Position numbers and translations under genes: made by a program. A model generated the notes under the pieces. It did not search any database. It worked only from the letters and a program-made list of their open reading frames with translations, and had not been told where the DNA came from. A DNA stretch of 64,000 bases from a virus: IMG/VR virus record IMGVR_UViG_3300037483_001116, positions 32,001 through 96,000 of that record. One strand, written 5' to 3'. Positions 23,462-61,700 of the stretch are shown here, piece by piece (within the stretch, counting starts at the first letter, position 1; every line of letters starts with the position of its first letter).

Positions 23462-23536
23462 CTCCCGCGGGTGGACTCGAACCACCAACCGACGCCTTAA
23501 CAGGGCGTTGCTAACTACCAATTGAGCTACGCGGGA
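23462..23536 (-). tRNA. tRNA-Asn(GUU)
   Basis: loop CTGTTAA. Confidence 0.9.
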
Positions 23537-23975
23537 ATGCTCCCCGTTTCCAGCCCGGAGGGGCTTTGACAAGGTCGTGATATTCAGTCCTCCCTGCCAC
23601 GTACATGGCCTTGGCAAACTTGCAGTCTCTGCAGCGACACTTCGCCGTTAAGTAGCTATGCACTGTTCCGCATACCGGGTCTATACGATTGTGGCCACCT
23701 CCCGTTTCACCGTTTTCTTTGGTCTTTTTACGATGACACCAGCAACAGAGAAGATCGCATTTTTCTAATTCCGCCAGAATCTTGTCCCAAGGGCCGTCGA
23801 GTCCGTACCCAGAAAGAATGAAGTCCTTTGTTTCTGGGTCCCGGTGATCGAACTCCAGCTCCCGGTCTTTGCCGCACCTAACGCACCGGCCGCCCGCAAT
23901 CCGTAAGACTTCTTCTCGTCGCTTTGCTCGACGTGCGGCCATGTACTTGCGCATGTATTCGTTGCCGTTTGCCAC
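23511..23975 (-). CDS. HNH endonuclease
   Basis: CVRCG...LEFDHRDP...CDLLCCWCHRKKT. Confidence 0.85.
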   Translation of the reverse strand: MANGNEYMRKYMAARRAKRREEVLRIAGGRCVRCGKDRELEFDHRDPETKDFILSGYGLDGPWDKILAELEKCDLLCCWCHRKKTKENGETGGGHNRIDPVCGTVHSYLTAKCRCRDCKFAKAMYVAGRTEYHDLVKAPPGWKRGAFPRSSIGS

Positions 23976-24237: not shown

Positions 24238-24311
24238 TACCCGCACTCAGATTTGAACTGAGAACCTTTCGCATGTCAAACGAATGCTCCGCCAGATTGA
24301 GCTATACGGGC
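24238..24311 (-). tRNA. tRNA-Val(GAC)
   Basis: loop TTGACAT. Confidence 0.9.
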
Positions 24312-24748
24312 TTGCCTTTGCTCCGCTTTGCTGCGCTGAATTCCCTGTTGTACTTGCGGGCGGCTTCTCGACAAAGCTCGCAGGGGCAATTACGCCTCCC
24401 CTTGACGCCCCCTCCGTGGGGAACGCTTCTCTCGTGAGAAGTCTTAACATCGTGATGCTCTTCGCAAAGGACCTGGCACTTGACCAATTCGGCGAAGAGT
24501 TTCTTGTCGCTGGCTAAAATTACCTTCGAGATGTTGATGCTTTTCTTGGAGCGATCGATGTGATCAATCTCCAGGTCTTCCAGGGCCCCACACTTTACGC
24601 AAGCGCCGCCAAGAAAGTCGATGGCCATTTGCCTGCGTCGCGCGTACCTTTCGGCAAGATAGTTGCGCATATAGGTGTTGTAGCAGAGCCGACATTTACT
24701 GGAGTTGGGCACAGCTTCATCGACTTTACAGACATGACATAACCTCAT
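24302..24748 (-). CDS. HNH endonuclease
   Basis: CVKCG..LEIDHID...CQVLCEEHH. Confidence 0.85.
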   Translation of the reverse strand: MRLCHVCKVDEAVPNSSKCRLCYNTYMRNYLAERYARRRQMAIDFLGGACVKCGALEDLEIDHIDRSKKSINISKVILASDKKLFAELVKCQVLCEEHHDVKTSHERSVPHGGGVKGRRNCPCELCREAARKYNREFSAAKRSKGKPV

Positions 24749-24987: not shown

Positions 24988-25003
24988 ATGTTCCATGGGT
25001 GCG

Positions 25004-25076
25004 TCCCCCCGGCACGATTCGAACGTGCAACCATCGGAGTAGAAATCCGGCGCTCTATCCGTTGAGCTACGAGGGG
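25004..25076 (-). tRNA. tRNA-Arg(UCU)
   Basis: loop TTTCTAC. Confidence 0.85.
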
Positions 25077-25083
25077 CGGTGGA

Positions 25084-25260
25084 TCATATCGCTGACTGGA
25101 AGCCGGCGACAATGCCGTTGGATTCATCGTCCTCGGCCATGACCCGTTTGAGGCTACTTGCCAGGACCGGATTGTCCACCGCGGTCAGCAGCTCGGCGAG
25201 GCTGTATTCGGATAAGTCGGCCAGGCCCTCGGTGTCGTCGCGTTCCTTGTTGCTTGCCAC
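25084..25260 (-). CDS. FxSxx-COOH (FxsA-like) RiPP precursor-like peptide, 58 aa
   Basis: MASNKERDDTEGLADLSEYSLAELLTAVDNPVLASSLKRVMAEDDESNGIVAGFQSAI*; AAAGGGGAG RBS; not in ORF track. Confidence 0.8.
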   Translation of the reverse strand: MASNKERDDTEGLADLSEYSLAELLTAVDNPVLASSLKRVMAEDDESNGIVAGFQSAI

Positions 25261-25405
25261 TGCAGCTCCCCTTTTTTTGATGCCGGTAATGCCCTTCAGG
25301 AACCCCTACCCCCGGCTCTCTGCTCGGACTTTCACCGAAGAGTACATCCCCTCTGACCTTGCGGCCGTGGGACTGTTCCGGGAGTGCGAGGGTTCCTGAA
25401 GGTCG

Positions 25406-25477
25406 TGTCCTGTATGGGAATCGAACCCATGACTCAAGGCTTTAGAGGCCTTCTCTCTGCCACTGAGCTAACAGGAC
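25406..25477 (-). tRNA. amber-suppressor tRNA (anticodon CUA)
   Basis: stem AAGGC/GCCTT, loop CTCTAAA. Confidence 0.85.
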
Positions 25478-27417: not shown

Positions 27418-27493
27418 TCGGGACGGAGGGATTTGAACCCCCGAATCTCCAGACCCCCAGTCTGGCGCGTTGACCAAGCTACGCTACGTCCCG
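27418..27493 (-). tRNA. tRNA-Pro(GGG)
   Basis: loop CTGGGGG. Confidence 0.9.
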
Positions 27494-28050
27494 ATGTCTT
27501 TGTGTGTACGATAGGTGCAAATTTTCCAGGCCGTTGTGCGATGCACCTGGAACTGAGCACCTATTTCGTCAAAACTGCTGCCACCAGAAAAGGCTTTCCT
27601 GATCTCTAGAACCCGTTCAGGGGTCAAATGATTACCGGTACCTTTGGGGCTTCTGTACTTTGCCGCGTACGTTTTTTGGGCGGCGCTACATGCGTCACAC
27701 CGGCAGTTCCAGGGCGCCCTATAGCCAGTAGGGGTCCCGTGGGGAAGGACAAGAATTTTGTTGTGGGCGCCGCCGGTTTCTTTATTTTCTTTACTTTTTC
27801 GGCGGTGACATTTTTCGCAGAGCAGTTGGCACTTGTCCAATTCACTAACCATGACTTGCCAGCGCCTATTGTAATTTGCGGCAATGGTAAACGACTTGGA
27901 CTTGGGGTCAATGTGATCAAATTGAAGGCTCTTTTGAGAACCGCATCTGTTGCAGAGATTACCAAGGTAATCTCTGCAACGCTGCCTTCGTCTCGCAACC
28001 CATTTTTTGTCGTATTCGCGGCGCCATCTACGTAATTCAGCCTTGTCCAT
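27484..28050 (-). CDS. HNH endonuclease with C-terminal HTH
   Basis: CNRCG..LQFDHIDP...CQLLCEKCH; visibly AT-richer. Confidence 0.85.
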   Translation of the reverse strand: MDKAELRRWRREYDKKWVARRRQRCRDYLGNLCNRCGSQKSLQFDHIDPKSKSFTIAANYNRRWQVMVSELDKCQLLCEKCHRRKSKENKETGGAHNKILVLPHGTPTGYRAPWNCRCDACSAAQKTYAAKYRSPKGTGNHLTPERVLEIRKAFSGGSSFDEIGAQFQVHRTTAWKICTYRTHKDIGT

Positions 28051-31030: not shown

Positions 31031-31410
31031 TAGCTGTTTCTGCGGTGTACCTGGTCGCGTACGGCCTTGTCGACTTTGATGCTGGCCAGGACTGTCTTCT
31101 GCTTGACCATCAGGCTGTAGCAGCGGCAGTCCTGCTGGGCGCCGAGGGGAAGGTACAGGAACGGGTCGCCTTTGTGGTGGGCTTCGAGGAATTGTTCCAG
31201 CTTCTTGAAGCCCGGTACCTTGAAGATGCGCATGTCGTACCAGTGGTAGACCTGTGCGATCAGCCAGCGATGCAGTGGCTGTTCCCATAGTTCCAACCGG
31301 TAGGTGATGCGGCGATTTTCGTCGCGTAAGTGGTGGACGGTGCTGACGTCGAATCCACGCTTTTTGATCATGTTGGCCGGCGTCACGTGCCGGAGCCGGT
31401 GTGTTGGCAT
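31021..31410 (-). CDS. hypothetical protein
   Basis: GC3-biased ORF after tRNA-Thr. Confidence 0.6.
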   Translation of the reverse strand: MPTHRLRHVTPANMIKKRGFDVSTVHHLRDENRRITYRLELWEQPLHRWLIAQVYHWYDMRIFKVPGFKKLEQFLEAHHKGDPFLYLPLGAQQDCRCYSLMVKQKTVLASIKVDKAVRDQVHRRNSYYS

Positions 31411-31419
31411 GGGGCTGCG

Positions 31420-31492
31420 AGCCGGCGACCGGGCTCGAACCGGTTGTCTTCGCGTTACAAGTGCGACGCAAGTCCTGACCTGCTCCGCCGGC
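31420..31492 (-). tRNA. tRNA-Thr(UGU)
   Basis: loop CTTGTAA. Confidence 0.85.
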
Positions 31493-31568
31493 ATTGACCA
31501 TACGGGCACCTATTGCGCCATCCGCTCCCCAGGCTCATTCGGTTTTACCTAGCGGCCAGACCCGTACG

Positions 31569-31641
31569 TGTCTCCGGGGAGGGTCGAACTCCCGCTGGCT
31601 GCCTCCTCAAGACAGTGCCTCTACCTTTGGGCTACGAAGAC
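31569..31641 (-). tRNA. tRNA-Leu(GAG), short variable arm
   Basis: loop TTGAGGA. Confidence 0.85.
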
Positions 31642-31770
31642 GTGTGGAAATCCCTGCGTGGCCCCTTGGGCCTCGCCCTCAGGAAACCTGCAGTTCCCCG
31701 GCTCCAGGGATCGATATGTTGCCGAGCGCATTTCTGGCCGGTTGATCATTCCGGCGTCCATGCGTTTCCG

Positions 31771-31850
31771 TGGAAGTGCGGGGAGTCGAACCCCGGTCCA
31801 GTGGTGTTCCGTCGTGCGGCTTTGCACCCCTGTCGTTACCAACCACCCCC
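31771..31850 (-). ncRNA. mini-tmRNA (tRNA-like domain only)
   Basis: GGGGGTG-GTTGGTAACGAC...GGAC-CGGGGTTCGACTCCCCG-CACTTCC-A; G3:U70; no D-stem; no coding domain. Confidence 0.65.
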
Positions 31851-31946
31851 GAGAACGTTTGGCCTTGTCATCCTTTCGGAAGCCCTCGCATCCGGCAGCT
31901 TTTATCGCCGCGCCCATCGGATAGCCAAACCGGCGAGTCCCTAGCG

Positions 31947-40383: not shown

Positions 40384-41997
40384 TCAGTCCTTGTGAGTCC
40401 AAGGCCACTCGGCTCGCTGTCCCGATTCGATCATCGGGATCATAGCGAAAGTTGCATCCGTCAATCCCGCGAGCTGGTGCCGGGTGCTGGAGGTGTCCAA
40501 CATAGCCGGTGCGTAACCCGCAAGATTGAGTGAATAGATCGGAACTGATGTCGGGATCTGGGATCCGACGTCGCCCTGCCAGTAGCCCCGGCCGGGCCCG
40601 AAGGTTTGCTCATCGGTGAAGATGGCAACCCGGTCGTGGCCCTTGAAGGTGGCCTTCAAGGCCGCCGCGGTGTGGGTGCCACCGCCGCGGACTTTTCGGT
40701 TGAACTCTTCCACCGACCGTAGAACGCTAGCGCCCTTCCGATGCTTGTGCTCCCAGACAGTGTCGTCGAACCCATACAGGTCCACCTGCTCGCCCTTGTT
40801 CGCCAAGGCGACACCGAACAGGGCCGCAGCGTGCAGAATCTGGATCTTCGACTCCTTGGACAGAGTCTTGCCGACCATCGACCCAGACGTGTCGATCAGC
40901 ACCAAGGTGCGATGCCGCCACGCCGGGATGTTGGCCGTCGAATACTGCAGCGCGGTCTCCAGGGCCTGCACCCACTGTGACCCTTGGGCGTACAGGTATG
41001 CCGTCAGGAACCGGAACGGCAACTGCCGCGAGTTCATGACGCCGGTCTGGCTTTCCAACCGCTCGCAGACCAGCCTGGTGGCCTCGCGCGAGATGCCGGC
41101 CTCCTGGAGGTTGCGCAGGTTCTTCAGCAATGCGCCGAAGCCCATGACTGGGATCAGGTTCTCCCAGACGTCGGCGGTCATGGCACCCCACGAGGAGGCC
41201 TGCTCCCACGTGATGCCGGCAGCCCGCAGAATCTCCTCCGAGTCGTCGCCGAACATCAGGTCCCGCTTCGCCCTGTCCGGCAGGGCCAGGATCGCCGCCC
41301 GCTTCTGCAGCATAGGCAGCTCTTCCGGGATCGGCGTCTTCGAGTCTCGCCGCGAATCCAGGATGTACTTGAACAGCGCCGACTGGGCGAACGACTTCGG
41401 CTCCGGGTGGCACAACTCGATCACGTCAGCCATGGTGACGGCCTTGTCGCCGCCGTTCCACTTGATCAGGGCGTATTCGTTGTACTTGGCCCGTGCCGCG
41501 TCCCCGAATCCACGCCGGATACCGGCTGGAATCTTGCGGCCGTAGGTGGCCAGCCAGTAGGCCAAGCCGTCGGCGACTTCGTCAGGCCGGGCGACCATGT
41601 AGAAGTCGCGCAGCAGCTGACGGGAAGGTCCGGCGGCCGAGCCTGGCTGACCGGCGGCCAGCATCGTCTTCGCGGCTTCGACGGCGGCGACGACCGCGGC
41701 GGTGCGGATGTTGGCCTTGTCCCGCAGCCAGGGGATGAACTCCAGAATCCAGGCCGGGTCCTCGGCGGCAACGGTCCGGACCAGAGTGGCGAGACGCGCA
41801 TTGCGGTCGTTGGCCTTCTCGTGGAAAGTCTCTTCGCCGTAGAAGGTAGACACGGCCAGGAGGAACAGGTCTGACTTGGCGTCACGGCTGTACGCCGGGG
41901 CACCTAAGTAGGTCTTGGTGTCCTGGGCGACAGTACGTAACGGAGAGCCGGCGTTGGGTGTGGCCGTCTTGGTGCCGCGCTTGTTGACGGTGGCCAT
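40384..41997 (-). CDS. rsr: Ro60/TROVE RNA-binding protein
   Basis: DLFLLAVS.FYGE.TFHE, YALIKW, ALLKNLRNL, SRQLPFRFLTAY, vWA IDTSGSM, FTDEQ. Confidence 0.92.
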   Translation of the reverse strand: MATVNKRGTKTATPNAGSPLRTVAQDTKTYLGAPAYSRDAKSDLFLLAVSTFYGEETFHEKANDRNARLATLVRTVAAEDPAWILEFIPWLRDKANIRTAAVVAAVEAAKTMLAAGQPGSAAGPSRQLLRDFYMVARPDEVADGLAYWLATYGRKIPAGIRRGFGDAARAKYNEYALIKWNGGDKAVTMADVIELCHPEPKSFAQSALFKYILDSRRDSKTPIPEELPMLQKRAAILALPDRAKRDLMFGDDSEEILRAAGITWEQASSWGAMTADVWENLIPVMGFGALLKNLRNLQEAGISREATRLVCERLESQTGVMNSRQLPFRFLTAYLYAQGSQWVQALETALQYSTANIPAWRHRTLVLIDTSGSMVGKTLSKESKIQILHAAALFGVALANKGEQVDLYGFDDTVWEHKHRKGASVLRSVEEFNRKVRGGGTHTAAALKATFKGHDRVAIFTDEQTFGPGRGYWQGDVGSQIPTSVPIYSLNLAGYAPAMLDTSSTRHQLAGLTDATFAMIPMIESGQRAEWPWTHKD

Positions 41998-49799: not shown

Positions 49800-52700
49800 G
49801 TGGCTATCGACCTTAGCCGGTGGAAGCCGGAATTGCACCCTCGTGACTCGAAGGGTCGGTTCCGCGACAAGTGGGGGCTGTCGCCTAAAGCCCGGTCCGA
49901 GGTGGACCGGCTGCTGGCGAACTTCACTGACACCCCCCCTCTTCGCAGCAATGAACATGCTGCGAGCTACCTGCGTACGCAGGCACCACCAAAGAGGTCG
50001 GACCGCCAGAAGGAAGCTATTCGGAAGTTCTTGAGCCGCGAAGGTAACGAGAACATCCAGTCGACGTTGCGGGCGCACGACAAGCCGACGCCCGACATCA
50101 AGGAACTTGACGGCATGATGGTGCCGTTGGAGCACGATCTGGTTCTGAGTCGAGTGGTAGGTCCGGACGCTTTTGGTCTCCGCGGCGAGGATATGGCCGG
50201 GGTCGAGGAGTGGAACGGCCAGAAGCTGATGGACTACGGCTTCTCGCCGTACAACATCGGTGACGCCTATCAGATCGCTGGACCGCATATCGAGATGCGG
50301 GTCCTGGTGCCGAAGGGCACTCCGGCTCTTATTGTCGGCGGTGACGGAAACAGCGCTGACGATGCCCGTACTGTCATTTTGCCGCGTGAGCTACCGACGC
50401 AGAACATCAAGATTCAAGATGATGGTCGCGGTGGCTGGTATGCCATGTCGGTTGTGGCTCCAGAGCAGGGTTCCGGGAAGGTGGCCCGAGGGCTGGCGGG
50501 TCGGCCGTTGCCGGCTCGGGACAAGTCGCCGGCTATTGAGGCCACGCCTGACGAGCTGGAGCGTCGTGGCATCTCCCCGGAGGAAGCTGGTGTCCCAGCC
50601 CCCCAGGAGCAGCCTGGACGGTTCGGCCCGGCGACTCCTGCGCCCGGCGCCGGGCAGCAGGTGTTGCCGCAGGCCGCCCCGACGGCGCAGAGTATCCCGA
50701 ACCCGGCCGCAGGCCCACCCGGCGACGCACCTGTACCTGAGGGTGTGGCCCAGCCAGCAAAGGCCATTAAGAAGGCCCAGGGTCAGATCCCAGTTGGTGC
50801 CGGCGGCGTTCCGGAGGAGGGTGTTGAGCCGACGCCTCGCGGAAAGATGCCTTCCCGGTCGGCCCGGGGTGTGGCAACTCCCGAGTCGCAGGCCGCCGAG
50901 GACGCGAAGACGCGGGCAGCGGCCGACAAAGAGGCCAAGGCCCGCGAGGATCGCCGGGTGGCGGCCGAAGAGGTCATGGCTCGGCGTGAGGAGCACATCG
51001 CCAGGCGCGAGACGCAGGTTGCCGAGCAGCAGGCGCAGATCAATGATCTACAGGCGCAGCAGATCGGTCAGCAGCAGGAGCTGATCGACCGGCTGATGCA
51101 GACACCTCCAGCCGCCGGTGGCGGGTCCGAGGGTGGTACCCGGGCCGCAGGTCTGTCTCCGGCGCAGAAGAGGGCCGTTAAAGGTCGGTTCCGGCCGGAA
51201 GGCACCTCGGACGAGGACCGTCGTCAGCAGGAGCTGGTCCGTCAGATCGACGCCGAGGAAGCTGCGGCGGCGGGCACGGGCGGAGATGGCGTTCCGGCGC
51301 CGACCAAAGCCGCTGGGGCTCCGGCTGCACCGCCAGCGCCGCCGGCCAAAAAGGGTATCAAGAAGGCCGCGAAGAAAGCTGCGCCTGAGGCAGCGGAAGC
51401 CGCCCGGGAAGCGCCAGGAACGGGCGGCGGCGAAGCGGAACAGGCTCCCGAGGACATCACCTTGGAGCAGGTCCGGGCCTACGGCGACGCAGACCGGGCC
51501 GCCATCGCCGACGTCAAGGATGAAGAATTCCCGGCCCTGACTCCCGAAGAGGCCACCGACGTTGAGCGCCTGTCACCGGAGCAGGAAGAGGTTTACTGGG
51601 CCCGGCGGGCGGCGGGCGCCATCCACACCCGGGCAATGCGTGGCCTGGGACCGCAGCCAGGGGCCAGGAAGAAGGCCGCGGCGGCCCGACTTGCGCCCGG
51701 GGCTCGACGCAGGAACTTCATCGGCCGGCAGGTCCGCGGCGAGCAGCTGAAAGAACTCCGCCCCGGCGACGTGGTCGAGGTTCCTTCCACCCGTGGCGGC
51801 AAAGGCGTCCAGCAGAAAACCGTTCGGGCCGTTGATGACGACGGCACCTTGATCTTCACCGACAATGAGCGTTTCGGCCGGGACCGCGGCTCAGTCAAGG
51901 TCGTTTCGCAGGGCAAGTTGAAGCCTTCGGCTGCCGCCCAGGGTAAGGCGCGGCGCTTGTCCGACCGCGTTGCTGCGGGCCTGAGTACCGACGAGACGAT
52001 CAAGGCTGTCCGCGACGGCCGGATCACGCCGGAGCAGGCCGCCAATAACCTCGACTCTAAGATCTACGGCTACCGCAAGCAGCAACTGCAGCTGGGCGAC
52101 AACGCCCCGCCGGAATTGACACGGGTTATTGACGCCCTGGTGAAGATGCGGGCTGACCTGCGGGGCGAAGGCACCCCGTCGGCAGACGAGGCCAAGAAGA
52201 CCACGGCTGCGGTCAAGCGCGCGACCAAGAAGGTCGCCGCGGACCGCGAAATCAGCGGCGAAGAGGTGCCGCTGGAGGCTGTCCGTCAGACCCCGGCGTT
52301 GAAGAAGGCCGCCGCCAAGTCAATCAAGAAGACCGCAGCAGCTGCCGGTCCCGACCTGGTTGATGCGGACCGGCCGGATGCCGCCAACGTCAATGCGGTG
52401 CGGCAGGCGAAGAGCCTGGGCGACGTGAACGCAGTCGCTGGCCGGCTTGGGGTCCGGATTCCGGCAACTGTGGGTCGACGGGAAGACCGGCGGGCCTTCC
52501 TGGAGAAGGCACTGTCCATGCAGGACGGTGAGTCGAAGGCTGATTACGACGCCCGGATCACGGAGCTGGGTAAGGCTCCGACGGGACCGGTGCGTGGTCG
52601 GCCGCGGAAGGCACGCCCAGGGGCGCCTGAAACTGTTGCGCCCGAGACGCCAGCGGCGGCTCCGGCCAAGAAGGCCAGCCGTCTGGCAAGGAAGGCTGCT

Positions 52701-55700
52701 CCAGTAGCCGAGGCCCCACCGGCCAAGAAGGCAGCCAAGAAGGTTGTTGCCGCCCCCGAGGGCCCGAAGCCCGTCAAAGCCCGTAAGGGTGCGGCCCCGG
52801 CGAAGGTAACCAAGGCTGCGAAGGCCACACCGGAGGCCCCGGCTAAGAAGGTTGCCGCCAAGGCTCCAGCGAAGGCCATCAAGAAGGCTGCTCCCGTCAA
52901 GGCCGCTAAGGCTGCGCCCGAGAAGCCGACCATCACCCGGGCCACGCCTCTGGCCAAAATGTCAGATGACGACGTCCTGGCCGAAGCCGGCCGCATCGAG
53001 GGTGCGCCTGAGACTCCACGCCAGCGGGCTGTTGCCCGTCGTGCCGCTGCGATCAACACTCGTCGCGAACGTACGCAGGCGCGGGAGCAGGTGCAGGCCG
53101 CTCGTGCCTCCGAAGCCGAGGCCCGCAAGGCGACCGCAGAGGCCAAGAAAGAGGCCGCTGCCGCACGGCTGGACGCTGCCAACGCCCGGAAGGAAGCCGC
53201 TGCCGCGAAGAAGACGGCTGCCGCGGCCAAGAAGGCTGCGCCAGAGAAGAAGGCTGCGGCGCCAGCCAAAAAGGTGGCCAAGGCAGCTACGACCAAGGTC
53301 GTAAAGAAGGCCTCCGCGCCAGAGAAGGCCGCCCCGGCCAAGAAGGTCGCTAAGGCTGCTCCTGAGCGGCCGGTTAAGGTTCTCCGTAAAGGTGCAGTCA
53401 AGAAGGCGCCAGCGTCAGCCTTTGATCGGGCCGACGCCATGTCACGGCTGCAAAACTTTGAAAACCCGCCCAGCCGCGAAGAGGCCGGAGCGTTGCTGGA
53501 GAACGCTTCCCGTGCGGATCTCGTTGCCATGGCGAAGGAAATAAGCGTTCCGGGTGCCTCCCGGAAGACGTCGCCGGAGCTGCGTCGGGAAGTCGTCGAG
53601 GCCACGGCTGGTCGGCGCCTTGATTCGATTGCCATCCGCGGATTCCGTGGCAAACGTCCAGGACAGAGGGCACCTGAGGAGCGGTCTGTCCGTCGCGTCA
53701 AGGCCCCGGTTGAGGATGCGGGGATTGGTCGTCGGGAGATTGCACCCATCCCAGGCGCTGTTCGTCGGCCGGGATTGGCAAATCCATCTGCATCTGCCAT
53801 CAAGCGCGGCGACCGGATCATGGTCACACGGAACGCCGATGGCCAGTGGGTTCGCACCATGAACAAGGGCGGCGCGGTTCCGCTGACTGTTGATTCAGTC
53901 GAGCGGGCGCTCGCTGGAAATCAGACTGGATACGTCTTCCACGGCAAGACGGACGACGGCAAGGACATCAGCACTGCCCCAGTGTTCGGGCAGAACGTTT
54001 TCAAGCGGGCCCCCGAGAAGGTGGCGGCGCCAGCGGTTGCGAAGAAGGCCCCAGCTAAGGCCATCAAGAAGGCCGCTCCCGCCGCACCAGAAAAGCCGAC
54101 CGTCACTGCGAAGAAAACCGCTAAAGCTGCCCCTGGTGGGCTGTTGCAGCGGGTTGTGGCTGACCTGGAGCAAGACAAGCAGGATCGTGCGGCAGCCAAA
54201 AAGGCTCCAGCGAAGAAGGTCCCGGCTAAAGCGATCAAGAAGGCGGCTCCGGAGAAGCCGGTCATCACCCGAGCTGCGCCAGTGTCCAAGATGGACGATG
54301 ACGCAGTCGTGGCCGAGGCCGCCAAGATCGAAGGTGCGCCTTCAACGCCTCGCGAGCGGGCGGTTTCCCGTAAGGCCGGACTCATCAGTGCCCGTCGTGA
54401 GCGGGGAGCGGCCAAGGCCGCAAAGGCTCCGGCGAAGAAGGCCACCAAGGCGCTTGCTGAGCCCAAGAAGCCGATGGCCGGCTACCGCGACACCGGTGAA
54501 GTTGTTCCCGAGGCAGACCGCGAAGGACTGCACGTCTCGCCGCAGAAATGGGGCGGCTACGGCGTTTACGACGGCAAGCAGGACCGCGTCGAAGCCGACT
54601 ACAAGACCGAGGCCACGGCACGGCGCCGGGTCCGGGAACTGCAGGCCGGCGACACGGTCAAGGCCATCATCCCCAAGGAGCGCACCGCCCGGCAGCAGGC
54701 CGCGGACAAGAAGGAAGCCGACCGTCAGAACGCTTTGGCGCGGGCGGCTGGGCGTGGGTCTGAGGTTGAGGCTCCTGCCGCAAAGAAGGCTCCGGCGAAG
54801 AAGGCCGCAGCTCCGACGCCCCTCGACGAGGACGAACGGCTTCTCGGCCCGGCGCTGTCCCGGGTGACTCGGGCGCAGCGCGCACAGGGCATCCCTGACG
54901 ACAAGATCCTGACCAATCCGGCTGACGCCAAGGCCGGCATGTACGTCTACTGGTCGCCCTCGAATCGGTTCAACAAGTTGGTCCGTCCACGCACCCGCCC
55001 CGGCAAGGGCTGGCACGTGGAGGATGGCAACCCGCAGTACCTGGGCTCCTTGCCGCAGGCCCAGGTTGATTCAGCGGTTGCTGAGTACAACCGCATGGCC
55101 GACCAGATCAAGGCTGCCCGCAAGAAGGTGCCAGCCAAGGCGGTCAAGAAGGCTGTACCTGAGAAGGCTGTACCTGAGAAGGTGGCGCCGGCCAAGGTGA
55201 CCAAGGTCGCACCGGCCAAGGAGGTTGTCGCTAAGGCTGTTCCTGGAAAGGCAACAGTCGCCAAGGCTGCACCCGAGAAGCCGGTCATCAAGCGCGCCAG
55301 CAAGAAGGCCCCGGCCACCCGCGGCATCACCGAGGCGGAGAAAAAGGCCCCGCCAACACCGGTGGGTGCCGCACGTCCTGAGGCCGCTGCCGCAACCGTC
55401 CGGCCCGCAGCGTCGTGGACTCCCGGTAGCGGTATGGATACGTCGCTGTACCTGTCGCTTCAGCAGTCGCTCGGCAAGGCCAAGGTCAAGAACCTCAACA
55501 CCTTGGACCGTGAGACCCGCGTTGCCAGCCGGCACCAGAATGTGCCGGCTGCCTACCAGGCTTTGCGTGCCGATCTGGCCGGCAGTCCCGACCTACAGGA
55601 CCGGCTGGACCGTTGGTACCGGTCCACATTCAAGCCGGCCGGCGGCAAAGACAAGGACCTGACCCGGTCGCTGCGTCGCGGTGTCACGGTTGAAGATGCA

Positions 55701-58700
55701 CCGCGGACGCCGCGGAAGGTCATGCCGTCGACCCCTGCGGCTGACGCTAAGATCCGCGCCACCGTCAAGGGACTGTCGCCGGAACTTCAGAAGGAATTGC
55801 TGGACAGCATGACTCCGGAGCAGCGGAAGGCTGTTCAGGATGCGATTGACCGTGTCGATGTGAAACTGGCGGCCCGGAAGGTCACCAAGGCAGCGAAGGC
55901 GGCCCCTGAGGCGCCGGCTCCGGCAAAGGCGGCCAGAAAGGTTACCCGGAAGGCAACAACGGAGGCCGTTCCCGCCGCTCCGGCGAAGAAGGCTTCGATC
56001 AAGAAGGCGCCAGCTAAAGCCGCTGCTCCTGAGCGGCCAGTCAAAGTCACCCGCAGAGGAGAAGCAGAGTCGCCAACAGCTGCTGCCCGTCGGGAGCGGG
56101 CAGAGCGTCGAGCGCAGCGACCGGCCCTGGAGTCGAAGGAGCGGAAGGCCGCCAAGGCTGAGGTTGCCCGTAAGGCGAAGGCCACTGATGCCCGCATCGC
56201 GGCGGAGCGGAAGGTCGAAGATAAGGCCCATGCTGACTTCATCCGGCCGATCCTCAAAGACGCTGGGGTCAAGCGGTCGGACCTGTCGGACCTGGACCAG
56301 ACTGGGCTGCGGGTGGTCAGCGACAAGCTGCGCGCCGGCCGGATCAGCAAGGCTACGGCGGCTCGGCGGCTGCGGACCGACCGTGACTCGCCGCTCAACA
56401 AGATCGCCGACGCGATTGAAGCCAAGCCCCGTAAGGCCGCAGTCAAGAAGGCTGCACCTGAGGCCCCAACGAAGGCTGCCAAGGCTCCAGCGAAGGTCAT
56501 CAAGAAGACAGCCACTAAGGCTGCTCCGGGGAGGCCAGTCAAGGTCACCCGGCGGGCGGACGAGAAAGCCGCCGCCATTGAAGCTCCAGCTAAGGCCGCA
56601 AAGGCGCCAGCGAAGGCCATCAAGAAGGCCGCCGTCGCCAAGAAGGCTGCACCAGAGGCAGCTCCGGCAGCGAAGCTGACCCGTGCCCCTAAAGGCGTGG
56701 ACAGTAAGCTGGTCGACGACCTCACCCCGGACCAGGTCGCACAGATCAACGACTTGAGCCCGGACAGTCAGGACCAGTACTGGGGCCGGCGGGTCACCCG
56801 CGGCATTGGTCACGACAGCGCCTGGCGGTCCGTACCGAAGGGCGACGTTGAGGCCCTTCGCGTTCCGAGTCAGGAGCCTCGTACACCGAGCCCGGCCCGT
56901 GGGCCTGGCGATGCGGCAGCAGTGGAGGCGTTGCGTCGTCCTACCATTGGCCGTCGCGGGACTGGTTCCCAGCGGCTGACCGAAGACGAAAAAGACAGCA
57001 TCATTCGACAGGCCGCCGACGCCAAGGCCGCCAATCCGAACTTCCCTGTGACACGAGAAGACCAGGACTTGGCCCGGGAGGCCGCAGAAATCCAGGAGGC
57101 CCGCGGCTCCACCACCAAGGCCGTCAAAGCCACCAAGAAGGTAGCCCCGAGGGAGGTCGTCAAGAAGGTCGCCCCGAACGTTGTCAAGACCCGGGAACGT
57201 CGGGCCAAGCAGTATGACGAGGCCGTCGGTGACGTTCCCGGCGACAGGGGTGGCCTGCTGCGCAGCACCAAGAAGGCCCTCGCGGAGGGGGAACCGGCAG
57301 CTACCGCCAAGAAACGTCTCGGCGACCGGGCTGAAAGTCTCCGAACTCAGGCCGAGCTGCTGCGCGAAAAGGGCAACAGTGACGTCCTTGGTCAAGAAAT
57401 CGCCAAACTTGAACGCGACGCCGACACCTATCAGCGTGCCGCAGACCTGGCCGGTAAGCGGGTTGTGCCGGTCAAGAAGGCCGTTAGGCCTGGCGAAAAG
57501 GTAGCCGTCAAGGATCTGGAAGACGGTGACGTTGCTGTTCTTGACGGCAAGAAGGGTGTGTTCCGGCAGCCGAAGCCTCGGACTACGTTCATTGAGTTCC
57601 CGGACGGTAGCCAGGAGAAGGTTCAGAAGTCGCGTCTGGCGTCGATGGTGCGGGAGAAGCGCCTTGCCCTCACCGGCGGCCCTCAGCGCACCGGTGTGCC
57701 GGAAGCTGAAGTCCCAGCGGCGGCGAAGAAGGCCCGACCCAGCATCAAGCGGCCACCGGCCACCGCGGCGGCTGAAACGCCTGGCAACGTGGGGGATCGG
57801 CGCCGGCTGGATGCCCTTGGTGACCGGCGGGATATGGCCAAGGCCCGCGCCGACGAGCTGGTCCAGGACGGTAAGACGTCCCCGGCGGCGTGGCGACAGG
57901 CTCTGGACGAGGTTGGCGCGCTTCCGGAGGAGAGGTCTGTCCGGCGCCGCTTGACTGGCCCCGTGGGTGGGGAAGGCAACGTCGACACCAGTCTCGAATC
58001 CCGACGGGCCAAGAAAGCGGTCCGGACCGTGACGCCGGGCGGCGAGTCACAGGTCGTGCCGTTGAAGCGGGGTGCGAAGAAAGCTGCTGCGCCCGAGGTT
58101 GAGGCTCCAGCGGCGAAGAAGGCTACCAAGAAGGTGGCGGCGGCTAGGCCTGAACGGCCAGTCAAGGTCACCAAGGCGGCGGAGACGCGGGCCGCGAAGA
58201 AGGCAGCTAAAGCTGCACCGGCGGCGCCAGCGGGACCGACGCCGCAGGAGGCACGTCGGGCCGCCCAGGCGGAGGCACGTCGGGTCCGGGAAGATGCCCG
58301 CCGTCAGGCCCGCGAGGCGCGGGAGGCAGTGTCGGCGGGACGGGCCAGCGAACGGCAGAAGAAGTACGGCCCCGGCGGCCCCAGTCACATCGACATGGCC
58401 CAGGTCGGCGACATTCGCAATGTGGATGTCACCGACGAACAAGCCGACCTTAACAACGGCAAGACGCCGACTGAGGTTGCCAAGAAACTGGACTTCCGCG
58501 CCCGCGGCACCAAGAACAGTGCGGCGATTATCGACGGCGGATGGGACAACGAAGCCAACCAGCGGCGCCTGGCTGACGACCCCGAATACTACGGACCCCT
58601 TCTCAGGGCACAGCGGGAAAGGTACGAGGAGGGAATCGCGCGTGGCGACCGGCTTCAGGAGCTGGCCGACAAACTGCGCGCCACCCGCCGCCCGGTGGCC

Positions 58701-61700
58701 CGTAAAGCTGTAGCCAAGAAGGCGGCGCCTGAGGCCCCAGCGCCGACTAAGGCAACCAAGGCTGCGAGGAAGGCTGCGCCCGCGGCCCCAGCGAAGGTGG
58801 CAAAGGTCGCCGCCAAGAAGGCGGCCCCTGAAGCTCCAGCTAAGGTGGCCAAGAAGGTTGCGGCTAAGGCTCCCGCTAAGGCTCCCGCAAAGGCCATCAA
58901 GAAGGCTGCCCCGGCTGAAGTTCCCGTGCATGAACGGCCTGACGTTAAGGCCGTCACCGACCGGCTGCCGGAAGTCCACCAGGACCAGATCCGACGGATG
59001 CTGACCGGCGACTACCGGGTGGCGAAAAACCGTCGCAGCCAGGCCTCGGCGCTGCGCAAGCAGGCCGCGTTCCGCCGCAACAGTGCCGACTCGTCGCTGC
59101 GGCAGAATCCTAACCTGCAGCGGGTCCGAGATGAACACGCCCGCGACATGGCCATTGCTGACCACTACGACCGGGTCGCGGACCTGATCTACCCGAAGCC
59201 AGGGTCGACGCCGTCGCGAAAGAAGCTTCCCGACGTTCAGGAAACGTTGGCGTCGAAGGTCAACGCCGCGGCGAAAATCATGGGCAACAGCCCTGCCGAC
59301 GAGCCGGTCCGCAAGGCCCTCGACTCGGGCGACAACAGCAATGTGGTCAGTGTCCGCAGCCGGGCGCAGGACCTGCGTGACGGGGCGAAGCGGATGCGGG
59401 CCGCGGGTGTGCTGCGCCGCCGGTCGAAGGACAAGGACGAACGGGAACTGGGTCTGCGGCAGGTTGCCGCGGCGAAGGAAATGGAGACGGCGGCCGGCGC
59501 GTTTGACGCCCACGCCGACACCATCCCAGAAGCCAGGGCCACCAAGCAGTTGGCCGCCGAGGTCCGTCGTACTGATCTGGTGCAGCGGCGGGAGCAGGCC
59601 CGGTTTGACCGGCGCCGGCAGCAAGGTATCGGTGCCGGCCTGGATGAGGCCGAGGCTGACGACTTTGCCCGCGGGGCGTCGACCATTGGCCAGTGGCGCC
59701 GCCGCAACGCCCCAGTTCCGGAGAAGAAGGCCGTTCCGGCGAAGGCGGCCAAGAAGGTAGCGAAGAAGGCTCCGGCGGAGGCCCCTGAGCGGCCAGTCAA
59801 GGTTATCCGTAGAGCCAAGAAGGCGACGGCCGCGGAGGCGCCGCCAGAGCGTCCAGTTCGACGCAGCAGCAAGGCTGTGCCGGACGCCGAGTCCGCCACG
59901 CCAGCCAAGAAGGCCCCGGCAAAGGCTGCCGGAAACGTGCAGTTGGACCGGGACCTTGATGTGTGGGAGAAGACCCGCATCAAGATCGAGGATCACCTTG
60001 GAAAGCTGCGGGCTCAACGCGAGAAGTCTGGTGACACGACACCAAGCGCCGATGAGCAGCGTTCAGCGCGCGCCTTGGGTCGGGCCATCAAGAGGATCGA
60101 CGGGCTGAAGGCAGAGAAGGCGTCGGTTGCCAAGAAAGCTCCGGCGAAGGCCATCAAGAAGGTTGCTCCTTCCGCTCCGGCCGCCAAGAAGGCGGTGCCG
60201 GCGAAGAAGACGGTGCCACTGAAGAAGGCTGCACCCGAGGCTCCGGCCAGGGCAGCGAAAAAGGCCGCCCCGGAAAAGCCGACTATCACCCGTAAGGCGA
60301 CCAAGGCAGCAGCTCCGGCGGCGACTCCTCGTCGCACCGCGGCTCAGAAAATTGCCGGGTCGAGGAAGTCTCGCGTCGAGGCGCCGGAGGGCTATGACCG
60401 GAAGACTGTTCCGGTCAGCAAGGCGTCGTGGGGTATCAAGTACCCGGACTACAAGCCGAACAGGTTCACCGCTGACGTCGTCAAGAAGAACGACGAAACG
60501 CTGCGCCCCCCAGGCAACACCGATCCCACCAAGTACTGGGCCGACCCGCCGAACGTCAAAGACGTCAAGCGGGAGTTCCGCAGCTACGAGGGCCCGGTCA
60601 AGCTGGACGCCGAGGGCCGGCCGCAGAACCCGTACACCCGCACCGGCGTGCAGGACCGCGGCGAGCTGGGTAAGTGGGGCGCCAACTTTGCCGGCGACGC
60701 CATTGTCACCCGGGTAGATCCGGAGACTGGCCGCTTGCAGATGCTGACCATTCGCCGTAAAGATGGTCAGCCCGCTATTCCTGGCGGAATGGTCGACTTC
60801 AACGAAGACATCTGGAAGACCCGCCGCCGGGAACTAAAGGAAGAAACCGGCGTCGACCTCGACCTCGCTGACTCCAAGGAAATCTACAAAGGTTATGTCG
60901 ATGATCCACGCAACACCGACAACGCGTGGATGGAAACGTCGGTTGGCCACAAGCACCTGAGCCCAGAAGAGGGTGCCAGGACCGACAAGTTCAGGCCCGA
61001 CAGCGAAGACGAAATCAAGGGCGTCTACTGGGCTGACGTCGACCCGGACATGATGGATGGTCTGTTCGCCAGCCACGGCGACTTCGTTGCCACCATGGCC
61101 GAACAGATGGCATCCGATAGGGGCCTGTCGCTAGCTGAGCGTCGCCGGCTGCGTTCTGCGGTCCGGACCCGCGCTGCCAGAAAGGTTGCCGCACCGAAGA
61201 AGAAGGTCCTGTCGAAGGCTGCCGTCAAGGCGTTGCCGGATCAGCCGGACCAGCCGACCGCCGCTAAGGCCACGAAGGCTGCCAAGGCTCCCGCGAAGGC
61301 CATCAAGAAGGCTGCCCCGACCACCGCAGAGGCTGCCCCGGCCAAGAAGGCGGTTCCGCCGACCAAGCGGACCCTTGGGCAGAACATGGCCAACCTTCGC
61401 GCCGCTACGACACCGGAGGAAGCCGACGCTGCGCTGGACAAGCTCACCGAGAATCAGCTGTGGTGGATCCGCCAGGAGCTGAAGACAGCTACCGAGAAGC
61501 AGGGTTCGAGCTGGACCCGGGCTCATTCACGTCGCGCCATCGTCGAGAAGCTCTTCCCTGCCAAGAAGGCTGCCCCAGAGAAGCCGACCATCACTCGCAG
61601 GGCTACTAAGGCTGCCGCCCCTGAGGGGCCAGCGAAGGCCACAAAGGGGCTGCGCCGCGCCGGCAGCAACGACGAAGCTCCGGGGCGTCTTGATGCCGAG

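What the first reader, a model, noticed from the sequence alone, without database searches (positions are those of the whole stretch)
25084..25260. Phage-encoded orphan FxSxx-COOH peptide
Seen: an unlisted 58-aa ORF with RBS, LxDLSxxSLxEL...VLASSLKRV leader and C-terminal AGFQSAI. Known: this matches FxSxx-COOH (FxsA) precursors, normally encoded beside the radical-SAM FxsB and FxsC/TPR proteins in actinomycetes. None of those genes is present in this window. Inference: a mimic or decoy of a host peptide system, which would imply that system has a role in phage conflict.
Basis: partly seen in the sequence, partly recalled or inferred. Interest (0 to 1): 0.72.

Follow-up and report, generated by a model that had tools for sequence, protein, structure and literature searches.

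The report
Phage-borne orphan FxsA peptide precursor
An uncultured 158-kb phage of actinobacteria carries, in its tRNA gene array and with no modifying enzyme, a well-conserved copy of a small peptide gene that its likely hosts keep inside a predicted immune gene cluster, so the phage probably feeds a look-alike peptide into that host system.

Summary
Window 25084-25260 (-) is a 58-codon gene with a GGGGAG ribosome-binding site. It scores 41.6 bits on NCBIfam TIGR04268 (FxSxx-COOH; cut-off 28) over the whole profile and ends ...VAGFQSAI-stop.

It is a real gene. Across six natural variants there are 9 synonymous and 3 conservative changes (pN/pS 0.10, P 2.6e-4).

It is a true orphan. The 158,018-bp virus record (97% complete) has no FxsB, no radical SAM domain, no aKG-HExxH hydroxylase, no FxsC C-terminal domain and no FxsT.

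Compared with a sister phage (portal 84% identical), the gene is a 208-nt insertion between a structured RNA element and tRNA-Arg(TCT). That sister phage and two other relatives carry their own FxsA (59-70% identical) in three other positions. Unrelated siphovirus-like and temperate phage contigs carry orphan copies too.

Published comparative genomics places cellular FxsAB inside predicted TIR/STAND/VMAP conflict systems of filamentous actinomycetes. The best reading is a mimic that depends on the host's maturase and steers or silences that system. This function is inferred, not shown, and the host is unresolved.

Unchecked notes of this scan report the same phenomenon on at least four other genomes. 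I found no paper on it and no copy in 50,697 GenBank phage records.

The parts
25084..25260 (-). fxsA: 58-codon FxSxx-COOH (FxsA-family) triceptide precursor gene with a GTG start and a TGA stop directly after ...VAGFQSAI
   Evidence: ORF list. TIGR04268 scores 41.6 bits against cut-off 28 over the full profile. PF27839 is precomputed for it. pN/pS is 0.10 across variants.
25266..25271 (-). Shine-Dalgarno GGGGAG, 5 nt before the GTG start and preceded by an A-run
   Evidence: Read from the sequence. It is invariant in all five aligned phage variants.
25079..25286 (-). Minimal fxsA cassette of 208 nt (RBS plus ORF plus a few flanking bases). It is present here and absent from the homologous slot of the sister phage G004.
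   Evidence: Pairwise alignment A4 of the window with L015 shows a clean 208-column insertion between the structured element and tRNA-Arg(TCT). The portals of the two phages are 84% identical.
25293..25402 (-). Conserved structured RNA element of about 110 nt with a 14-bp closing stem, immediately 5' of the cassette. It probably forms the 5' end of the fxsA message after tRNA processing. It is not specific to fxsA, because G004 has it without fxsA.
   Evidence: MFE -67.3 kcal/mol, z -3.4, 0 of 200 shuffles as stable. It is about 97% identical between G000 and G004, and no substitution breaks a predicted pair: one G-C to A-U pair change, two wobble-compatible changes, and a fourth change in an unpaired column. 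No Rfam family matches. It is single copy in the genome.
25405..25477 (-). Upstream neighbour: tRNA with anticodon CTA (amber-suppressor type; ARAGORN labels it 'Pyl')
   Evidence: ARAGORN. Rfam tRNA model 64.2 bits. It is conserved in variants L002-L007 and in L015.
25003..25076 (-). Downstream neighbour: tRNA-Arg(TCT), starting 7 nt after the fxsA stop codon
   Evidence: ARAGORN. Rfam tRNA model 63.2 bits.

Best explanation
The ORF is a genuine FxsA-family (FxSxx-COOH, triceptide) precursor gene. The phage carries it as a 208-nt minimal cassette (ribosome-binding site plus 58 codons) inside its tRNA array, and carries no Fxs enzyme. My proposed mechanism has four steps. First, the cassette is transcribed on the same strand as the tRNAs, and the message is released by tRNA processing. 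Second, the peptide is translated from its own Shine-Dalgarno site. Third, its intact leader and host-identical core (...GIVAGFQSAI) make it a substrate of the host's FxsB cyclophane synthase and aKG-HExxH hydroxylase. Fourth, the resulting look-alike peptide enters the host Fxs module, which in filamentous actinomycetes is embedded in predicted TIR/STAND/VMAP suicide-type conflict systems. I think the most likely benefit to the phage is keeping that system from firing. It could do so by replacing a short-lived host peptide whose level falls when the phage shuts off host expression, which is the logic of an antitoxin mimic. Alternatively it could saturate the maturase or the peptide's receptor. 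Shown here: the gene is real, belongs to the family, is orphan in the genome, is under purifying selection, and recurs as independent insertions in phages. Inferred: the host has an Fxs system, the host enzymes modify the peptide, and the peptide affects immunity in the stated direction.
For: Family membership: TIGR04268 scores 41.6 bits against cut-off 28 over the full profile. Every invariant or near-invariant FxsA column is present (L13, D15, L21, L24, P31, D45, A52, G53-S56, I58).

Real gene: 9 synonymous and 3 conservative changes, pN/pS 0.10, P 2.6e-4. The SD and GTG start are conserved.

Orphan: the 97%-complete record has no FxsB, no radical SAM at E<=1, and no mod_HExxH, FxsC C-terminal domain or FxSxx_TPR.

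Bona fide phage: portal, large terminase and head protease are present. All portal relatives are actinophages.

Recurrence:
- Sister phage G004 (portal 84% identical) lacks the gene in this slot. It has its own FxsA (59% identical) between tRNA-Arg(CCG) and tRNA-Cys.
- L009 has one between two tRNA-Thr genes.
- L028-L030 have one 3.8 kb past the array.
- Unrelated viral contigs L011, L013, L014 and L016, and a 38-kb temperate-phage contig, carry orphan copies. FxsB was searched for and not found in the records holding L011, L013, L014, L015 and L016.

The exact core is kept in phage and cellular copies, which argues that the mature product matters, not only leader binding.

Cellular context: FxsA-FxsB-aKG-HExxH beside FxsT/SAV_2336 and a MoxR-like ATPase in Actinoplanes. 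The closest cellular FxsA sits next to FxsB. FxsB is over its cut-off in 29 of 301 sampled genomes of the class, nearly all of them large.

Literature: FxsAB is coupled to VMAP-ternary and TIR-ParA conflict systems, and the peptide is predicted to be a toxin or signal (PMC7159879; bioRxiv 10.64898/2026.10.19.760177).
Against: The host is unknown beyond Actinomycetota, so it is not shown that the host has an Fxs system. Only about 10% of sampled genomes of the class carry FxsB. No experiment links any Fxs locus to phage defence, and PADLOC has no Fxs model. The defence role is a comparative-genomics prediction. If the mature peptide is an alarm signal, making more of it would seem to harm the phage, so the direction of the effect is open. 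No isolated phage carries a copy, so there is no experimental handle yet. Expression is inferred from the RBS, the strand and selection only.
Confidence: 0.55

Rival explanations
1. Enzyme jammer. The phage peptide acts unmodified, or as a dead-end substrate. Its leader occupies the host FxsB (or the hydroxylase) and blocks maturation of the host's own FxsA, so no signal or toxin peptide is made.
For: The leader motifs are fully conserved. High-level expression from a tRNA-array transcript is plausible. An unchecked note of this scan describes a phage FxsA look-alike that keeps the leader but replaces the core (e1-5358630).
Against: The core ...GIVAGFQSAI is kept letter for letter in all variants and in other phage copies. 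A pure leader decoy would not need this.
Confidence: 0.17
2. Phage-serving signal. The phage uses the host enzymes to make the mature peptide for its own ends. Possible uses are communication between infected cells, manipulating uninfected neighbours in the mycelium, or excluding competing phages by pre-arming the host system.
For: The core is identical to cellular peptides. Published models consider the peptide a diffusible signal in multicellular actinomycetes. One carrier is a temperate phage contig with an integrase, where helping the lysogen would pay.
Against: No receptor or regulator gene accompanies the peptide in any phage copy examined. The 158-kb phage shows no integrase in the regions annotated here. 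There is no evidence of export.
Confidence: 0.15
3. Neutral passenger. The gene is a fragment of host DNA picked up by illegitimate recombination, with no function in the phage.
For: Phage tRNA arrays are hot spots for insertions (HNH and other small ORFs). The gene is tiny.
Against: There is purifying selection (pN/pS 0.10). The cassette has its own conserved SD and carries no flanking host sequence. At least four separate positions occur within one phage group, plus copies in unrelated phages.
Confidence: 0.06

Closest known systems
FxsA/FxsB (FxSxx-COOH) triceptide system of Actinomycetota (NCBIfam TIGR04268, TIGR04269, TIGR04267, NF040586; Pfam PF27839)
   Same: The peptide has the same length class, the same leader motifs and the same F-x-S-x-x-COOH end, and scores above the curated HMM cut-off. 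The core VAGFQSAI is identical to that of cellular precursors that sit next to FxsB. Triceptides are three-residue cyclophanes made by radical SAM enzymes on aromatic-X-X motifs (PMC11499958).
   Different: There is no FxsB, hydroxylase, FxsC or FxsT anywhere in the genome. The carrier is a phage, and the gene sits in a tRNA array as a 208-nt cassette. Modification is untested.
Predicted VMAP-ternary and TIR-ParA (FxsC/FxsT) conflict systems with a coupled FxsAB peptide module (Kaur et al. eLife 2020, PMC7159879; bioRxiv 10.64898/2026.10.19.760177)
   Same: The phage peptide belongs to the FxSxx peptide type that these papers tie to TIR, AP-ATPase and TPR effectors and predict to be a toxin or an alarm signal. 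The Actinoplanes locus L018 shows the FxsA-FxsB-HExxH module beside FxsT/SAV_2336 and a MoxR-like ATPase.
   Different: Neither paper's passages on the Fxs peptide system read here mention a virus-encoded FxsA. The 2020 paper calls the HExxH protein a peptidase, whereas NCBIfam now names it an aKG-dependent beta-hydroxylase (Morishita et al. 2024 as cited in PMC12912966). Their defence role is itself unproven.
Phage-encoded mimics of labile host immune components, such as T4 Dmd and phage pseudo-ToxI antitoxin mimics (from my own knowledge, not checked here)
   Same: The logic is the same. The phage supplies only the small, fast-turnover component of a host suicide system and relies on the host for everything else.
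   Different: Those are antitoxin proteins or RNAs of toxin-antitoxin systems. Here the component is a RiPP precursor that would need enzymatic maturation, and its regulatory role is hypothetical.
Arbitrium (AimP) phage signalling peptides (from my own knowledge)
   Same: Both are a small phage-encoded precursor peptide that is matured by host enzymes.
   Different: Arbitrium phages also encode the receptor AimR. No receptor gene accompanies the phage FxsA copies. AimP is not a radical SAM RiPP.
Earlier unchecked notes of this scan on phage-borne orphan FxsA genes (e1-5611230, e1-5785253, e1-5680190, e1-3414655)
   Same: They report the same phenomenon on other genomes. One concerns a 148-kb phage with the gene in its tRNA array, probably the sister phage G004 that I analysed independently.
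   Different: This window is a different phage, with the cassette in a different slot and a 59%-identical peptide. Comparing the two shows insertion and turnover rather than vertical inheritance.

Membership tests
FxsA / FxSxx-COOH precursor peptide family (TIGR04268, PF27839) | Score at or above the curated HMM cut-off over the full profile | tested here: met
   41.6 bits against cut-off 28, E 1.1e-10, profile 1-44 of 44. PF27839 is precomputed for it.
FxsA / FxSxx-COOH precursor peptide family (TIGR04268, PF27839) | F-x-S-x-x at the extreme C-terminus, with the stop codon directly after it | tested here: met
   The peptide ends ...VAGFQSAI followed by TGA. G53, F54, Q55 and S56 are invariant in 16 aligned homologues.
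FxsA / FxSxx-COOH precursor peptide family (TIGR04268, PF27839) | Small precursor of about 50-70 aa with the conserved leader (LxDL..xxLxELL, NPVL) | tested here: met
   It is 58 aa, and L13, D15, L21, L24 and P31 are all present.
Fxs gene cluster (FxsA with FxsB and accessory genes) | Adjacent FxsB radical SAM/SPASM maturase (TIGR04269) | tested here: not met
   The whole 158-kb record has no TIGR04269 match and no PF04055 match at E<=1. The complete sister phage G004 also has no FxsB match.
Fxs gene cluster (FxsA with FxsB and accessory genes) | aKG-HExxH protein, FxsC (TIR-like) and FxsT (TPR/NTPase) nearby | tested here: not met
   TIGR04267, TIGR04276 and NF040586 have no match in the record at E<=0.1. 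The TIR domain proper was not searched with its own model. A cellular reference locus has FxsB, HExxH and FxsT.
Triceptide RiPPs | Three-residue cyclophane cross-link (aromatic carbon to C-beta) installed on the core | not testable with these tools
   This needs mass spectrometry or NMR after co-expression with an FxsB. The complex predictor was unavailable.
Anti-defence (counter-immunity) gene | Demonstrated inhibition of a host defence system | not testable with these tools
   Only contextual and evolutionary evidence exists. The defence role of Fxs-linked systems is itself only a prediction.

The most novel reading that the evidence does not exclude
Phages of filamentous actinomycetes repeatedly capture only the precursor gene of the host FxsAB peptide and use the host's own radical SAM maturase to make a counterfeit of the peptide that controls a TIR/STAND suicide-type immune system. 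This would be immune evasion by RiPP mimicry. It would also be the first genetic evidence that the Fxs peptide is the regulatory ligand of that system and that the system is antiviral.
Probability: 0.35. Interest if true: 0.85.

Novelty: new variant of a known kind. Interest (0 to 1): 0.7.

Why it matters
The Fxs peptide and its radical SAM maturase are chemically characterised as a family, but their biology is unknown. The large TIR/STAND/VMAP loci around them are among the most widespread predicted immune systems of multicellular actinomycetes that remain untested. A virus that keeps only the peptide, under selection and through repeated independent insertions, is the kind of evidence that has flagged real defence systems and their regulators before. 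It gives a simple experiment: express the 58-aa phage peptide in an Fxs-positive strain, then look for modification and for loss of phage resistance. That experiment could settle both what the peptide does and whether the system is antiviral. It would also add RiPP precursors to the list of molecules that phages mimic.

Tried and rejected
- Close relatives among isolated phages. Megablast of the locus and tblastn of three different phage FxsA peptides against 50,697 GenBank phage records found nothing. No cultured phage is available as a handle.
- IMG/VR scan with the single peptide found nothing. Only the alignment-based scan worked.
- The local Pfam-A copy gave no FxSxx hit, only an irrelevant weak match. 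The family PF27839 appears only in precomputed annotations.
- Host identification. Searching the phage peptide in 401 sampled genomes of the class gave three weak hits at 38-52% identity. The genome-contig scan gave only Nonomuraea and Actinoplanes at 38-40%. The host is not resolved beyond Actinomycetota.
- Complex prediction (FxsB alignment A3 with the phage FxsA) was not available. Nothing was folded.
- PADLOC has no Fxs-specific model. There were only generic AAA and viperin-like radical SAM hits, so this gives no independent support for a defence role.
- Stop-codon recoding, suggested by the adjacent tRNA(CTA), is rejected. TAG ends 54 of 163 long ORFs, and reading it through does not improve the gene structure more than reading TGA through does.
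- Rfam found no family for the 5' structured element. A motif search for a second copy gave only chance-level matches.
- Chance ORF and host-DNA contamination are both rejected. The gene lies about 57 kb into a 158-kb phage record, between phage tRNAs, and has the same flanks in six metagenome variants.

Full report
**1. The observation**

The window holds a 58-codon ORF at 25084-25260 on the minus strand. Its product reads MASNKERDDTEGLADLSEYSLAELLTAVDNPVLASSLKRVMAEDDESNGIVAGFQSAI. It starts at GTG and stops at TGA immediately after the final Ile. A GGGGAG Shine-Dalgarno lies at 25266-25271, five bases upstream, behind a run of A.

NCBIfam TIGR04268 ('FxSxx-COOH cyclophane-containing RiPP peptide') matches at 41.6 bits against a curated cut-off of 28 (E 1.1e-10). 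The match covers profile positions 1-44 of 44. The protein collection's precomputed annotation gives Pfam PF27839 FxSxx-COOH. The local Pfam copy lacks that model. In an alignment with 15 homologues, every invariant or near-invariant column of the family is present in the phage peptide: L13, D15, L21, L24, P31, D45, A52, G53, F54, Q55, S56 and I58.

**2. It is a real, selected gene**

The 90%-identity cluster of this peptide has six members from independent metagenome assemblies. DNA was available for six contigs, L002-L007. Among the distinct sequences there are 12 variable sites. Nine are synonymous. The three replacements are conservative (A2T, K5R, M41V). This gives pN/pS = 0.10 and a binomial P of 2.6e-4 against neutrality. 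The SD and the GTG start are invariant.

**3. The carrier is a phage and the gene is an orphan**

- The window is bases 32001-96000 of an IMG/VR virus record of 158,018 bp, which CheckV estimates to be 97% complete.
- It encodes a portal (phrog_776, E 5e-135), a large terminase and a head protease.
- Its portal matches only actinobacteriophages, at 36% identity or less. The best overall match is Actinoplanes phage phiAsp2 (32% identity over 93% of the portal).
- GC content is 62%.
- The gene sits in an array of about 45 tRNA genes, all on the minus strand.
- Six-frame searches of the whole record found no FxsB (TIGR04269) and no radical SAM domain even at E<=1 (PF04055). They also found no aKG-HExxH domain (TIGR04267), no FxsC C-terminal domain (TIGR04276) and no FxSxx TPR protein (NF040586).

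**4. Anatomy of the insertion**

A sister phage, G004 (IMGVR_UViG_3300036861_000610, 147,889 bp, 100% complete), has a portal 84% identical to this one. In G004 the tRNA(CTA), a 110-nt structured element and tRNA-Arg(TCT) are contiguous. In the window, 208 nt are inserted between the element and tRNA-Arg(TCT), at 25079-25286. The insertion consists of the RBS, the ORF and a few flanking bases. It is a minimal cassette with no flanking host sequence. The stop codon is 7 nt from the tRNA-Arg gene.

I infer that the message is released from the array transcript by tRNA processing, with the stable element (25293-25402) at or near its 5' end.

**5. Recurrence**

G004 has its own FxsA, 59% identical, at a different slot between tRNA-Arg(CCG) and tRNA-Cys. 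The homologous slot in the window is empty.

Two further tRNA-carrying phage contigs that share small genes also carry a copy. The shared genes are Ricin-B lectins and Inhibitor_I36; DUF7873 links L028 to the 71-kb contig that encodes this window's peptide.
- L009 has a 60%-identical FxsA between tRNA-Thr(TGT) and tRNA-Thr(CGT).
- L028-L030 have a 70%-identical copy 3.8 kb beyond tRNA-Cys.

Outside this group, orphan FxsA genes occur in several other phage-type contigs:
- L013: a 57-kb siphovirus-like contig, next to the tape-measure gene.
- L014: next to RecT and a methyltransferase.
- L011: near a polynucleotide kinase.
- L016: a 46-kb, 95%-complete record.
- A 38-kb temperate-phage contig with integrase, holin and amidase.

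The virus records holding L011, L013, L014, L015 and L016 have no FxsB match. Five of the six other viral peptides pass the TIGR04268 cut-off.

Pairwise identities among phage copies (34-72%) are no higher than between phage and cellular copies. Together with the different positions, this points to repeated capture or rapid turnover rather than one inherited gene. The last ten residues, GIVAGFQSAI, are nevertheless kept almost unchanged.

**6. What the cellular system is**

The closest non-phage homologue (68% identical) lies directly upstream of an FxsB fragment.

A full reference locus in Actinoplanes sp. NPDC049599 (L018) reads as follows:
- FxsA.
- FxsB (430 bits).
- An aKG-HExxH-type peptide beta-hydroxylase.
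- On the other strand, a 1,430-aa protein combining the SAV_2336 N-terminal domain with the FxSxx TPR module (FxsT).
- A MoxR-like AAA ATPase.

FxsB exceeds its cut-off in 29 of 301 evenly sampled genomes of the class. Almost all of these are 5-10 Mb genomes.

FxsB is one of the radical SAM/SPASM enzymes reported to form cyclophanes on their precursors (PMC10114670). Triceptides are three-residue aromatic-to-C-beta cyclophanes on aromatic-X-X motifs (PMC11499958). The HExxH partner is now regarded as an aKG-dependent beta-hydroxylase (Morishita et al. 2024, as cited in PMC12912966).

Kaur, Burroughs, Iyer and Aravind (eLife 2020, PMC7159879) found the FxSxx peptide module coupled to VMAP-ternary conflict systems with TIR/AP-ATPase/TPR effectors. 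They predicted that the peptide acts as a toxin or as a signal alerting neighbouring cells. A 2026 preprint (10.64898/2026.10.19.760177) maps FxsC to an active TIR and FxsT to a ParA plus an inactive TIR. It repeats the prediction of an antiviral molecule or a diffusible alarm.

None of this has been tested experimentally. PADLOC contains no Fxs model.

**7. Mechanism**

The phage keeps both the enzyme-recognition leader and the exact core, and nothing else. The simplest reading is that the peptide is made for the host's FxsB and hydroxylase to act on, so that the phage injects a counterfeit of the host peptide into the Fxs-linked system.

I favour suppression of that system, with confidence 0.55 for dependence on and interference with the host Fxs module. 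There are two ways this could work:
- The peptide replaces a labile host peptide whose loss would report host shut-off.
- The peptide saturates the enzyme or the receptor.

The rivals are:
- A pure enzyme jammer (0.17). The perfectly conserved core argues against it.
- A phage-serving signal (0.15). This is possible, especially for temperate carriers, but no receptor gene travels with the peptide.
- A neutral passenger (0.06). Selection, the gene's own RBS and recurrence argue against it.

The main weaknesses are that the host is unknown and that the direction of the effect cannot be deduced from sequence.

**8. Novelty**

The peptide is an ordinary member of a known family. What is unusual is the setting and what it implies. 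I found no paper describing virus-encoded FxsA and no copy in GenBank phage records.

Unchecked AI notes of this same scan report the phenomenon on at least four other genomes. One of them is probably G004. My analysis agrees with them and adds the slot-by-slot comparison.

I rate it a new variant of a known kind, with interest 0.7.

**9. Tool not available**

The complex predictor was unavailable.

Noticed in passing
window 25293-25402 (-): An RNA-like element of about 110 nt lies between tRNA(CTA) and the fxsA cassette. It is strongly structured (14-bp closing stem, MFE -67 kcal/mol, z -3.4). It is about 97% identical between this phage and sister phage G004, although the flanking tRNAs differ much more. 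No substitution breaks a predicted pair (one G-C to A-U pair change, two wobble-compatible changes, one change in an unpaired column). There is no Rfam match and it is single copy. G004 has it without fxsA, so it goes with the suppressor tRNA and not with the peptide gene. The phage also encodes a Ro60-like protein (window 40384-41997, phrog_850), so a Y-RNA-like role is one idea.
   Followed up: partly
window 25405-25477 (-): A tRNA with anticodon CTA (amber-suppressor type) is conserved in all variants and in G004. TAG nevertheless terminates 54 of 163 long ORFs, and reading TAG through does not improve the gene structure, so there is no sign of general recoding.
   Followed up: partly
window 49800-64000 (+), continuing to genome position 101725: One open reading frame of 6,641 codons follows the head protease gene.
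   Followed up: no
window 23511-23975, 24302-24748 and 27484-28050 (-): HNH-type endonuclease-like ORFs (CxxC ... HxxDH motifs) are interspersed between the tRNA genes on the same strand as the tRNAs.
   Followed up: no
window 31169-31863 (-): ARAGORN calls a permuted 'tmRNA*' that overlaps two ordinary tRNA genes (Thr, Leu). It is probably a false or partial call.
   Followed up: no
L018:9001-9174 (Actinoplanes sp. NPDC049599): A bona fide cellular FxsA, directly upstream of FxsB, scores only 26.4 bits on TIGR04268. That is below the 28-bit cut-off and well below the phage peptide's 41.6 bits. The curated model therefore misses some genuine precursors.
   Followed up: no
L009, L028-L030 and the 71-kb Logan contig that encodes this window's peptide: Some of the tRNA-carrying phage contigs with an FxsA share small genes for Ricin-B lectin domains (L009, L028-L030), a protease Inhibitor_I36 domain (L009, L028) and DUF7873 (L028-L030 and the 71-kb contig) in or near the tRNA array.
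   Followed up: no
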